Part shown: positions 5,184-63,945 of the stretch, one piece after another
Layout of the letters: every line of letters starts with the position of its first letter
Numbering within the stretch: the stretch's first letter is position 1
Origin: Octopus sinensis
Lineage: Eukaryota
Length of the DNA stretch: 64,000 nt
Assembly (NCBI RefSeq): GCF_006345805.1
Contig: NC_043009.1
Location: forward strand, 24,366,001 to 24,430,000
Reading direction: 5' to 3'
Notes under the pieces: generated by a model
Databases searched by the model: none
What the model was told of the DNA's origin: nothing
The model's input: the letters and a program-made list of their open reading frames with translations, nothing else
Position numbers and translations under genes: made by a program

Positions 5184-5272
5184 TTTAACAACTCGTACCG
5201 CGGTTTCTGCTTCTTTCTAGCAAAACACAGAATATGTTTGCTAAGGCCAGCTTCATCAGCGAGTCGCCTAAA
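5184..5272 (-). ncRNA. Type I hammerhead ribozyme, copy 1
   Basis: Minus strand reads gcgactcg CTGATGA [45-nt stem II containing the tagcaaaca/tgttttgcta hairpin] GAAA ccgcgg TA cgagttgt. Stem I is 8 bp with G-U pairs and stem III is the palindrome ACCGCGGT. Predicted GUA cleavage at 5196/5195. Confidence 0.8.
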
Positions 5273-5623
5273 TTTAATCGGGTCTGCAGCGATGTGGGAC
5301 TATGTGTGAACCCGACTACTAGCAGATCTTAACTTTTCAAATCTCTGCGCAGACGCAAAATTTACACGGCATGCCGGGAAGAATTTTACGAATAATCCAT
5401 CATGTAGTATGCGAATATAAACAAGAAGGGTAGTAATATTATTTACTACCAGGTGCCCAGCACAAAAGACGAATTAGTCATAAGACAAAAATATTATTCA
5501 TATAGAAAAATATTATTCATGTAGTTATACAATTAAGGGCTCCTAAATAAAGATGCCGAGTGCTGGGAACACAAAAAGGGGATGAATTTATCGAGAGTGA
5601 AAATCAAAAACGTTACCGATAAC

Positions 5624-5711
5624 TTTAACAACTCGTACCGCGGTTTCTGCTTCTTTCTAGCAAAACACAGAATATGTTGCTAAGGCCAGCTTCATCAGCG
5701 AGTCGCCTAAA
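5624..5711 (-). ncRNA. Type I hammerhead ribozyme, copy 2
   Basis: Same motif 440 nt away, with a 1-nt deletion in the stem II hairpin. Predicted cleavage at 5636/5635. Confidence 0.8.
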
Positions 5712-5726
5712 TTTAATCGAGGTCTG

Positions 5727-5798
5727 CTGATGAAGCTGGCCTTAGCAAACATATTCTGTGTTTTGCTAGAAAGAAGCAGAAACCGCGGTACGAGTTGT
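5727..5798 (+). ncRNA. Hammerhead core in the inverted copy (5' strand of stem I lost)
   Basis: CTGATGA at 5727-5733, GAAA at 5779-5782, then CCGCGG TA cgagttgt. The inversion junction removes most of the 5' strand of stem I. Confidence 0.55.
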
Positions 5799-6224
5799 TA
5801 AAGTTATCGGTAACGTTTTTGATTTCACCTCGATTTATCCCCTTTTTGTGTTCCCAGCACTCGGCATCTTTTTAGGAGCCCTTAATTGTATAACTACATG
5901 AATAATATTTTTCTATATGAATAATATTTTTGTCTTATGACTAATTCGTCTTTTGTGCTGGGCACCTGGTAGTAAATAATATACTACCCTTCTTGTTTAT
6001 ATATATATATATATATATATATATATATATATATATATATATATACACACATAATATCGCTGCCCCCTCGTTATCAAGTATGGCCATTGCACGAAGCTTA
6101 ACTGTTACTGGTGCTGTGATCGAATGTGACTTTTTAGCCCAGCTAAAGATCTACAATGTTTTGTATATATTATATATATATAATATATTACATAGAAATA
6201 ATATATATATATATATATATATAC

Positions 6225-60934: not shown

Positions 60935-61259
60935 TGTGGCGATCCCATAGAGGAAGATGCTACTGTTGTTTATAGCCCCAGTAAGACATCTCCTGTAGCT
61001 GGTTCACGACACACTGTGTCTGATTAGTATTTGTGAAGGGAAATCATTGTCCCCATCTCTAGCCTCACGTGATACACACAAACCCGGCTTTCTGTGTATT
61101 AAGTTCTCATCAGCCTGTGATAATCACCAGCTAGCAATGAGATTTAATATTGCTTGTTTCTCCTTTTCCGAGATCAGCGACATTCTGTCACTGGAAAAGC
61201 ATATAATATTTTGCGCTTGGAAAAGAACAGTAGCATCATCCTCTATGGGACCATCACAT
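60935..61259. mobile_element. MITE-like element with about 37-bp imperfect TIRs
   Basis: tgtggcgatcccatagaggaagatgctactgttgttt pairs with aaagaacagtagcatcatcctctatgggaccatcaca. Confidence 0.7.
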
Positions 61260-61899
61260 CTAGTTGGCAAACTTACTTCACGATTCTAATGTTGCTGCTG
61301 TTTACTTCTCGCTCAGAGATTTAATATAGCTATATATATATTATATATATATATATATATATATATATATATTATATATATATATATATATATATATATA
61401 TATATATATATATATATATATAAACGTAGATAAACTTAGATATGTTTCGACCAAGGTTTGATTCAAGCCATGTGTAAATTAATGTGCACGTATGTATATA
61501 TTTATGTATGTAATTAGTTCGGTAGGTAAAACTACATAAATATATGTGTATATACGTGTGTATATATGTGGGAAGTACAACTACAGAACCTGAGAGGTGA
61601 GAGAGAGTGAGAAAGAAAGTGAGAGAGAGAGAGAGCATGGAGATTGATGTATACTGAGTTAGGAGGACAACTTCAAGGTGACCAGCTGTTTGAAAGTGGC
61701 ACTAAGTTATGACAAACTGATAGAAAAAGGCATGAAATATTAGCTAAGTTTGCAAAGACCGTTATACAGAAACCTAACCAGCTCCTCCAACATTACACGC
61801 TAAACAATGTGAGCAAAATTCCAGAGCAGCAACCACAGAAGCATATATAATGCATTAAACACTACAAAACATACACACAGGACAGACTAATACTATATT

Positions 61900-62400
61900 A
61901 ATACTCAGTTTTGTGCCTTTAACAATAAGTCTGAGAACCTCGTATATCGGCGGCATCCGAAAAATTTGCGGAGATGTGCTACTCGTCCCTAGAGAGAAGC
62001 AATAATATAAAAATGGAAGATTTTTCGAAGACTAGATCTTAGCTTTGGAATTGAGAGCTATATCAACCACAGATCAGGGCGGCACTGCATATTACCAAGC
62101 CTCCCGTCTTTTGAATCTAGAAGGAGCACCAGTACTGTAACAGATTAGGCTATAAGGGTTTGTTCAATTATTCAACATACTACCAAACAACCTCAGAGAT
62201 TTGCAAGGTGTAGATGTGGGTGTCTTCAAAAGACATCTGGACACATTTTATCTGAGATACCAAATGAACCCACATTGCGGCAGAGAGACGTAAATATGAG
62301 CAGGTCGCTCGAAGTCGAAATGAGAAATGATACAGAAGAGAAACCTAATCACAATGAAAGGCTTTGTCCCAGCTAGGCCTTAGCCTCTGGCTGAATTCAT
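61900..62400 (+). mobile_element. CR1/L2-group LINE 3' fragment, highly decayed
   Basis: SLERS..WKI and QLFNILPNNLRDLQGVDVGVFKRHLDTF, homologous to 50270-50660. Confidence 0.7.
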
Positions 62401-63496
62401 TAAGTCAATAAACCAATCAAAAGATATTCATCCTACCGACGTAAAAATGAAAATAGTTATTTAATAATGTTGTCGTTGGCATAAAACAAGATAGTCACTA
62501 TTGAAGAGTGTTCGAAAATTTTATCGTATCTAGCGAGCCAAAGCACATTTAAATCCTCAAATACTTTAACAATGAAAGGAAAATCATTTAAATTTGGAAA
62601 TATTTCAAGAATTACTCTGAAACGGAAATTCATAATATTTTATGTAAATTTGTCTGCGATAAACACTAATGATAATAATCAATCATATTGTTGAATTGCT
62701 CAAATTTATACAAATAATTCAGAAATAATTCTATAAAGAAGACATGGATATTTGGTGAGGCGGTGCTGGGTTCTCGATTTTGGTACATGGGGATTAATTG
62801 TAGTGGAAGAGGGATATTCGATAATAATAGAGTCAATGATATCTCAGCAACTTATTTTCTCAAGAATTATTTGCTCCGTATTGATATATGTATATATTTA
62901 TGTGTGTGTGTTTGTACTAGCTTAAAAGCCGCCCTATCAGGAGACTACTAAGCTAGCTCCTGCGGAGGGTTCTTCATTAGGCCTTGGGCCCAACGATGAC
63001 ACTTTATGCACTGAACAATATTTTTCAAGCAATGAACGACAATTTTTGTCTCCCAATTAGACTAAGGACTGAAACAAGTAGCAAAAGATAAAGATACATA
63101 TACACATGTATATATACACATAAAGGCATCTATACGTACATACATACATACATATATATATATATTTATATGCACACACACATACACACACACACACACA
63201 CACACACACACATATATATATATATATATATATATATATATATATATATATATGTATGTATGTATATTGATAGAAATGGCAAGAAAACAAAAGAATGAAA
63301 GAGACCTCGATATCATGTAAATAGAGGAATTTATCTGTAAATAAATGTGAAATTATTCGGTAGCGATGATAAAACATATATAGTAGAAAAGGGGAGAGAA
63401 TTTCGATTACCCCACTGGTGAGTTGTAATGCCAAATATTACATATATATATATATATATTATATATATATATATATATATATATATATATATATAA

Positions 63497-63945
63497 TTCC
63501 CATAAAAATATCGTGTATATTAAAACACATTAAGAGGCTTCCAGATAGGAAAGCATTGTGCTAGAAAGAGCAGTAGTAAACTCAAACCACTAATTAGGGA
63601 TAAATTCTCGAAAGGAATGAACATTAAAAACGTTTACCACCTACTTTAGTTTCTAGACCATAGTTTCTGACTAATTTCAGTATAAAAAATTTCATCAGTA
63701 GGTAGCATTTATATTTTAAATATACACACAGCTAGATCCGCATGTAAATTCGCTGCCTGCATATTCTAACTTTTCAAATCCACTGCGCAGATGCAGTTTA
63801 TTTCCGGCGACGGAGAGGATGCCGGTAAAATTTCGAACAAATTTGTCAAAAAATATTTAAACATAATAAATAATATTAAGGTAATAAGAATTATAGAAAT
63901 TATTATTACCAGTGGCCTAGCACAAACAAAAATTAATCAGTAGGC
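63497..63945 (-). mobile_element. Third member of the HHR element family (about 450 bp)
   Basis: Shares ctaacttttcaaa...ctgcgcaga, gaggatgccggtaaaa and tattattaccagt with the 5090 and 16736 copies. Confidence 0.8.
63652..63703 (-). ncRNA. Type I hammerhead, short stem II variant, partly decayed
   Basis: Reverse complement reads accta CTGATGA aattt..aaatt agtca GAAA ctatgg TC taga. It sits at the position homologous to the HHRs at 5.2 and 17.1 kb. Confidence 0.62.

What the first reader, a model, noticed from the sequence alone, without database searches (positions are those of the whole stretch)
5184..63703. One ~450-bp element family keeps the HHR fold with compensatory changes in three diverged copies
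Copies at 5.2, 17.1 and 63.7 kb share flanking blocks and keep CUGANGA/GAAA/UH while the stems differ. Stem I is gactcg/cgagtt, tccc/ggga or cta/tag. Stem III is ccgcgg, ccgttcgg or ctatgg. The triplet is GUA or GUC. All three have an A just before GAAA, and two carry a large stem II with an internal hairpin. This covariation suggests selection on self-cleavage across subfamilies and possibly a lineage-specific HHR variant.
Basis: partly seen in the sequence, partly recalled or inferred. Interest (0 to 1): 0.75.

Follow-up and report, generated by a model that had tools for sequence, protein, structure and literature searches.

The report
Hammerhead retrozyme with loosened helix-II base
These are three copies of an old, very abundant, protein-free jumping repeat in a probable octopus genome; its hammerhead RNA fold, predicted to cut itself, is preserved by paired changes across many subfamilies, but the "extra A" is only one of several tolerated mismatches at one spot, so this is a modest variant of a known kind of element.

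Summary
The three motifs are real and homologous (63-68% identity). They belong to a superfamily of 398-474-nt non-coding units with a type I hammerhead, spread through G000 as tandem arrays and back-to-back arms in (TA)n. Covariation holds: across 22 representatives, 14 of 19 pairs change on both sides, and RNAalifold finds helices I and III unaided. In copies aligned without using the motif, the core is about 2.5-5 times less mutated than the rest. Several "compensatory" states in the finding are decay: the 17.1-kb copy has a private U·U, and the 63.7-kb copy has a ~15-nt helix II deletion and two point changes. The A before GAAA is not invariant (13 of 20 representatives). Position 10.1·11.1 is A·A, A·C, C·A, A-U, G·U or G-C, and published Penelope-like (PLE) hammerheads already show U·U and C·A there. 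I found no A·A in print. Best reading: a non-LTR retrozyme likely mobilised by a PLE (Hydra clade most likely). Cleavage, circles and the partner enzyme are untested. This scan has noted octopus retrozymes many times on other DNA.

The parts
5092..6002 (.). Subfamily A insertion: left arm on - (5092-5727, about 1.4 units) and right arm on + (about 5708-6002), joined at their truncated 5' ends, 3' ends facing out into (TA)n
   Evidence: L001: 3' ends at unit positions 111 and 222
5190..5265 (-). Hammerhead A1, intact: stem I 6 bp, A·A at 10.1/11.1, 45-nt helix II domain, palindromic helix III, GUA; predicted cut between 5196 and 5195
5630..5704 (-). Hammerhead A2, second tandem unit, one base short in the inner hairpin
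5722..5796 (+). Hammerhead A3 in the inverted arm; the 5' strand of stem I is replaced by the arm junction
16736..17285 (.). Subfamily B insertion: short left arm on - (16736-16928), right arm on + (16931-17285) ending in (TA)n
   Evidence: L031
17115..17190 (+). Hammerhead B: core intact, private U·U at the base of stem I, A-U plus unpaired A before GAAA, GUC
63500..64000 (.). Subfamily C insertion: left arm on -, starting at (TA)n near 63500; the junction and the right arm lie just beyond the window end (G000:C13 to about 24430440)
63653..63701 (-). Hammerhead C, decayed: ~15-nt deletion in helix II, single changes in stems I and III
4889..5090 (.). (TA)n tract at the left end of insertion A
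5998..6045 (.). (TA)n tract at the right end of insertion A
17285..17319 (.). (TA)n tract at the 3' end of insertion B

Best explanation
The three copies are insertions of three subfamilies of one old non-coding tandem repeat with a conserved type I hammerhead fold, likely a non-LTR retrozyme that is predicted to self-cleave and is likely copied into (TA)n by the enzyme of a Penelope-like element. SHOWN: 398-474-nt units without a reading frame; tandem arrays; back-to-back 5'-truncated arms whose 3' ends fall at two fixed sites and run into (TA)n; covarying helices I, II and III; a palindromic helix III that changes sequence but mostly stays palindromic; a 10.1·11.1 position that tolerates A·A, A·C and C·A. 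INFERRED: an array is transcribed; two neighbouring hammerheads pair through their palindromic helix III and cut; the unit is ligated to a circle; a PLE RT-endonuclease (Hydra clade most likely, Neptune possible) nicks both strands of a TA tract, starts at the two internal sites about 105-115 and 205-225 nt downstream of the cut, and runs one or more laps. Subfamilies that lose the fold stop yielding multi-unit copies, which keeps the fold while the flanks drift by a third. The mismatch at the helix II base is probably tolerated, costing rate rather than activity.
For: Covariation on 22 representatives: 89.3% of cells paired vs 79.0 +/- 1.0 shuffled, 14 of 19 pairs with two-sided change, 0/500 shuffles, slid controls 22.5-50.3%. 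Unsupervised RNAalifold on 20 representatives: 13 pairs, 8 with two-sided change, covering helix I, the inner hairpin and helix III. Copies aligned by BLAST without the motif: core mismatch per cell 0 vs 1.1% (A, 19 copies), 0.5 vs 2.5% (B, 30), 3.0 vs 7.7% (C, 29); Fisher p 0.006 and 2e-4 for B and C, cells not independent. Exact helix III palindrome in 14 of 20 representatives, in six different spellings. 3' ends bimodal in all three subfamilies; 7 of 7 A and 13 of 18 B two-armed loci use one site on each arm (counted by eye). Units of one array, both arms included, differ by 0.26-0.28%, different arrays by 1.5% (52 units). Longest ATG frame 25-79 aa in the five true units, no pol III boxes, no tRNA head. 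G000 holds young PLEs with open frames of 800-920 aa; those inspected also end at one of two sites into (TA)n. Inverted 5'-truncated copies, an optional tail and (TA)n bias are described for PLEs (PMC8557442); two-strand cleavage and two internal start sites are shown in vitro for one PLE (PMC11167929).
Against: No cleavage, circle or transcript was observed. No autonomous PLE shares sequence with the unit: BLAST and an nhmmer profile hit only separate insertions in the PLE loci. 5' ends are not enriched at the cut site: 2 B loci and no A locus have a junction there, among 46 and 26 ends, about chance. Homogeneous arrays also follow from transcripts of homogeneous source arrays. In the anole PLE, cleavage was not needed for insertion and needed protein; 8 of 9 Xenopus retrozyme dimers did not cleave in vitro. 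The shuffle control ignores relatedness, and subfamilies other than A-C were found with patterns that demand the core, so core invariance among them is circular. Helix I is favoured in the predicted circle only for A (P 0.57-0.89; 0.45 or less in B, C, E, M).
Confidence: 0.78

Rival explanations
1. The units are solo or tandem pseudo-LTRs of an autonomous PLE family that I did not sample, not an independent non-autonomous element.
For: Same hammerhead type, two 3' ends and (TA)n target as PLE termini. Most PLE hammerheads lie in truncated copies (PMC4209133). Xenopus retrozymes resemble pLTRs.
Against: Arrays of 15 or more complete units with no ORF between them. No PLE ORF lies directly upstream on the same strand in any of the 135 loci with a family hit. 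Only Hydra-like, Neptune-like and one partial Poseidon-like protein were used as probes.
Confidence: 0.1
2. The fold is kept as a protein-binding or folding signal for the PLE enzyme, and cleavage is slow or irrelevant; multi-unit copies come from uncut transcripts and template jumps.
For: Loss of the G10.1-C11.1 pair in 19 of 20 representatives; mismatches here lower activity in older mutagenesis as cited by PMC3088659. No cut-site enrichment of 5' ends. PAc inserts uncut RNA.
Against: The catalytic nucleotides and the GUH triplet are the least mutated class in B and C copies, and helix III stays palindromic, as dimeric cleavage needs.
Confidence: 0.1
3. A satellite amplified at DNA level in which a chance or fossil hammerhead drifts neutrally.
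For: Tandem arrays; two of the three window copies are decayed; 13 of 29 C copies have a damaged core.
Against: Dispersed over most large contigs, fixed 3' ends with variable 5' truncation, compensatory changes between subfamilies.
Confidence: 0.02

Closest known systems
Metazoan non-LTR retrozymes (Cervera & de la Pena 2020, PMC7229834, passages and section 14 seen, supplement unreadable; Li, Clavereau & Pollet, bioRxiv 10.64898/2026.07.22.740005, parts 1-3 of 5 seen)
   Same: Non-coding tandem units of 150-450 bp, GC under 45-50%, one type I hammerhead per unit, co-occurrence with PLEs; mussel units 350-390 bp without the usual loop-loop contacts.
   Different: Units 398-474 nt; helix II domain 39-49 nt in two parts; mostly no G10.1-C11.1; two-armed insertions with two fixed 3' ends in (TA)n, which the parts I read do not describe. 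Circles and cleavage are shown there, not here. Cephalopods are not mentioned in the 2020 main text and not among the groups sampled in the preprint.
Hammerheads of Hydra-clade Penelope-like elements (Craig et al. 2021, PMC8557442; passages, section 11, supplement part 2 with File S2 seen)
   Same: (TA)n target, short near-palindromic helix III, mismatch at the helix II base (U·U in 14 and U·C in 1 of 26 Hydra rows; C·A in PLE-X1_cBra); an octopus Hydra family is listed.
   Different: No ORF here; no A·A closure among the 34 rows; helix II much longer than in the Hydra rows; tail about 100 nt rather than 30-40.
PLE minimal hammerheads (Cervera & de la Pena 2014, PMC4209133; parts 1-2 of 4 and supplement passages seen)
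   Same: Palindromic helix III, predicted dimeric cleavage, extra nucleotide after A9, many covarying families in one genome.
   Different: Those keep a highly conserved G10.1-C11.1; here an unpaired or mismatched base also sits before G12.
Natural hammerhead core variants (Perreault et al. 2011, PMC3088659; section 8 and passages seen)
   Same: U10.1·U11.1 mismatch reported as natural and as the best-tolerated mismatch.
   Different: A·A, A·C and C·A are not described in that section; their pipeline rejected hits with a 10.1-11.1 mispair unless activity was measured.

Membership tests
Type I hammerhead ribozyme | Core C3 U4 G5 A6 N7 G8 A9, G12 A13 A14, A15.1-U16.1, H17 | tested here: met
   All three window copies; intact in 19/19 A, 28/30 B, 16/29 C copies
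Type I hammerhead ribozyme | Three helices supported by covariation | tested here: met
   no phylogeny-aware test (R-scape) was available
Type I hammerhead ribozyme | Paired 10.1-11.1 (usually G-C) closing helix II | tested here: not met
   G-C in 1, other standard pair in 3, A-U plus unpaired A in 4, mismatch in 12 of 20 representatives. Mismatches here are known in natural hammerheads, so this marks a variant rather than excluding it.
Type I hammerhead ribozyme | Match to an Rfam hammerhead model | tested here: not met
   0 hits at gathering score in 6 loci, including a canonical G-C member and an autonomous PLE; none among the 150 of 332 rows shown for the window
Type I hammerhead ribozyme | Self-cleavage at NUH | not testable with these tools
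   needs an assay
Non-LTR retrozyme | Short non-coding tandem unit, one type I hammerhead per unit, low GC | tested here: met
   398-474 nt, GC 0.32-0.38, longest ATG frame 25-79 aa; arrays
Non-LTR retrozyme | Dispersed by retrotransposition | tested here: met
   fixed 3' ends, variable 5' truncation, many contigs
Non-LTR retrozyme | Abundant linear and circular unit-length RNA | not testable with these tools
   only contigs of runs of uncertain kind were available
Penelope-like element (autonomous) | RT plus GIY-YIG ORF between pLTRs | tested here: not met
   no ORF in or directly upstream of the unit
PLE-mobilised element | Inverted 5'-truncated copy, optional tail (two 3' ends), microsatellite target | tested here: met
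   the tail is about 100 nt
PLE-mobilised element | Sequence shared with the pLTR of a partner PLE | tested here: inconclusive
   none with the Hydra-like and Neptune-like families sampled; other families not sampled
tRNA-derived SINE | tRNA head with pol III A and B boxes | tested here: not met

The most novel reading that the evidence does not exclude
Octopus retrozymes have repeatedly replaced the hammerhead's most conserved helix II pair with a second sheared pair (A·A, A·C or C·A stacked on A9·G12). This makes an active, dimer- or protein-gated natural variant, present in thousands of copies, that Rfam models and standard descriptors discard, and the G-C, G·U and A-U sister subfamilies supply matched natural controls for it.
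Probability: 0.3. Interest if true: 0.62.

Novelty: new variant of a known kind. Interest (0 to 1): 0.4.

Why it matters
The class is known, so the main value is as test material. One superfamily offers seven natural arrangements of the helix II base in otherwise comparable ribozymes, the youngest (A·A) spreading recently at 96-98% identity. If A·A cleaves, hammerhead censuses that require a 10.1-11.1 pair undercount animal ribozymes, and the rule that this pair is near-essential needs relaxing. The two fixed 3' ends give a sequence read-out of how a PLE enzyme would copy a retrozyme RNA, a partnership proposed but not shown in the papers I read.

Tried and rejected
Rfam: no hammerhead hit; the window's listed hits are microsatellite-driven miRNA models below gathering. 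Partner search: 20 Hydra-like PLE regions, 6 Neptune-like regions and 20 regions around other long hammerheads were fetched; none shares sequence with the unit. Family members near PLEs in L038, L145, L158 and L160 are separate insertions. 'A·A is invariant': I held this after and rejected it once patterns without the forced A were run. 'A10 and A11 are coupled genome-wide': rejected; non-A..A gives 2,215 vs 879 control and A..non-A 5,235 vs 969. A long-range helix between the conserved upstream and downstream blocks is 84% paired but shows no covariation beyond shuffles (2 of 12 pairs; 27-151 of 500), so it is not claimed. Cut-site enrichment of 5' ends: three of five apparent hits in B were artefacts of my length filter. 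RNA evidence: no RNA holder listed; four runs laid as contigs cover all 30 bins and carry the head-to-tail joint, which genomic arrays also give. The 631-nt 'H unit' is not a monomer and was left out. Literature: searches found no description of an A·A closure or of cephalopod retrozymes. Lunse et al. on PLE hammerhead variants is not held, the 2020 NAR supplement could not be read, one 2014 supplement file was not searched and bioRxiv supplements are closed; any of these could show the variant.

Full report
OBSERVATION. The window is G000:C13:24366001-24430000 in a 2.7-Gb animal genome. That it is an octopus is my inference from recalled repeat types and from earlier scan notes. The 5-kb locus has three motifs: a minus arm of about 1.4 units and a plus arm, joined at their 5' ends and flanked by (TA)n. 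The 17.1-kb copy has a private U·U at the base of stem I. The 63.7-kb arm differs from its sister arm just outside the window by a ~15-nt helix II deletion and single changes in stems I and III, while the sister has A6>U. So 'cta/tag' and 'ctatgg' are decay, and subfamily C has the long helix II too.

THE FAMILY. Searches with each copy gave 931, 1,323 and 1,945 first-look candidates, of which 40 each were scored; best relatives are about 96-98% (A), 90-95% (B) and 78-90% (C) identical. Pattern searches gave further subfamilies. I accepted them by similarity of the flanks alone (shuffled flanks reach 4.7 bits, accepted subfamilies 12-67). Unit lengths are 445, 440, 474, 404 and 398 nt, GC 0.32-0.38, with no long frame, pol III box or tRNA head; circular folding z is -0.8 to -4.3 against 40 shuffles. 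Contigs of four runs under three organism codes cover the A unit at high identity.

COVARIATION. On 22 hand-picked representatives, 89.3% of cells pair, 14 of 19 pairs change on both sides, none of 500 shuffles reaches that, and slid controls give 22.5-50.3%. RNAalifold on 20 representatives, given no structure, recovers helix I, the inner hairpin and helix III, with 8 of 13 pairs compensated. Caveats: relatedness is not corrected for, some representatives are close, my script filtered on stem I pairing, and all subfamilies except A-C were found by core patterns. The non-circular test used copies aligned by BLAST: core mismatch per cell was 0 vs 1.1% in A, 0.5 vs 2.5% in B and 3.0 vs 7.7% in C (p 0.006 and 2e-4 with non-independent cells). 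One of 30 C loci was dropped as an overlap, and 19 A loci were used. Helix III is an exact palindrome in 14 of 20 representatives, in six spellings, the known mark of dimeric cleavage (PMC4209133).

THE EXTRA A. It is fixed within A, B and C but not in the superfamily. Of 20 representatives, 7 have A·A, 4 have A-U plus an unpaired A, 3 A·C, 2 C·A, 2 A-U, 1 G·U and 1 G-C (the two G rows are counted as A·A from the alignment, their isolated folds are looser). On a flank-only tree of 20 earlier representatives, the G-C lineage is sister to an A·A lineage (99%) and the G·U lineage to another (97%), so the state changed at least twice (about 170 sites, midpoint root, direction unknown). A·A and C·A also occur in families with no flank similarity. 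Genome-wide, A..A gives 2,448 matches vs 571 control, while G..Y with a wider spacer gives 21,465 vs 494. In print, an extra base after A9 is typical of PLE hammerheads, U·U at 10.1·11.1 is natural, and File S2 of PMC8557442 has U·U in 14 and U·C in 1 of 26 Hydra rows and C·A in PLE-X1_cBra, with no A·A in 34 rows. So the position is known to be loose in PLE-type hammerheads, and A·A is a further state that I did not find described. That A·A, A·C and C·A can form sheared pairs like A9·G12 is recalled knowledge, not tested here.

HOW IT MOVES. 3' ends are bimodal: about 105-116 and 207-230 nt after the cut in A, 93-120 and 196-216 in B, 144-163 and 241-252 in C, running into (TA)n; 8 of 30, 3 of 31 and 2 of 26 had no tract in range. 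5' ends are scattered. Two-armed loci mostly use one site on each arm (7 of 7 in A, 13 of 18 in B). All units of an array, in both arms, share one haplotype (0.26-0.28% vs 1.5% between arrays). This matches PLE anatomy and the two-strand, two-start chemistry shown for the anole PLE. G000 has young intact PLEs. One group carries the DKT motif described for the Hydra clade, a long G-Y-closed hammerhead and two 3' ends into (TA)n. A group that I call Neptune-like from recalled sequence features also ends at two sites into (TA)n. Neither shares sequence with the unit, so the partner is inferred; Hydra is preferred for its target and helix III style. Because every insertion is 5'-truncated, arrays would shrink each generation without a circle or template jumping; that is the likely reason the ribozyme fold stays under selection (inference). 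Against cleavage being central: 5' ends are not enriched at the cut (2 B loci, no A locus), PAc inserts uncut RNA, and 8 of 9 Xenopus dimers did not cut.

VERDICT. A real, selected hammerhead fold in a retrozyme-type superfamily; known class, modest variant. Earlier scan notes reached the same class reading for other octopus families (45 notes; 238 in this genome), and long helix II or C·A closures were noted before; none matched this sequence. These notes are not independent support. Papers seen: bioRxiv 2026.07.22.740005 parts 1-3 of 5; PMC4209133 parts 1-2 of 4 and supplement passages; PMC11167929 parts 1-2 of 4; PMC7229834 passages and section 14; PMC8557442 passages, section 11 and supplement part 2; PMC3088659 passages and section 8; PMC6765202, PMC11300833, PMC6155905 and PMC6962438 passages only.

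Noticed in passing
window 57880-58240 (-), hammerhead core starting near 58059: A different, very young family (98-100% identity, ~475-bp tandem units, 1,315 first-look candidates) with a compact hammerhead: 4-bp helix II with a GUAA loop, 7-bp stem I, AUA triplet.
   Followed up: partly
window 24622-24730 (+): Decayed long-helix-II hammerhead of another family, damaged at the cleavage triplet and ending in (TA)n; an intact relative is in L193.
   Followed up: partly
window 22468-23297: A 246-bp perfect-spaced palindrome (96%) followed by a remnant matching the C-terminal endonuclease region of the Hydra-like PLE (E 4e-6).
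   Followed up: partly
window 46878-47249 (-): Weak match to the C-terminal part of the Neptune-like PLE protein (E 1e-5).
   Followed up: no
L224-L228, 3' region after the ORF: The Neptune-like PLE has a minimal hammerhead with UUGAAAA (U3-A8, a known covariant); L223 has U3 with G8.
   Followed up: no
L295 (G000:C19:24022057-24025153): Both arms of a B insertion carry a shortened unit in which position ~232 is joined directly to the first base after the predicted cut; a possible trace of a cleaved RNA end, single case.
   Followed up: partly
window 5135-5178 (-) and homologues: A block 20-60 nt downstream of the cut is nearly as conserved as the core (16 invariant of 95 downstream columns vs 3 of 95 upstream); a candidate recognition site for the PLE enzyme. 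Its pairing with an upstream block showed no covariation.
   Followed up: partly
window 27786-28505, 48984-49736, 14700-14964: Tandem duplications of 346, 366 and 107 bp.
   Followed up: no
window 14014-14060 (+): A lone CUGAUGA...GAAA motif with weak stems, possibly a decayed or chance hammerhead.
   Followed up: no
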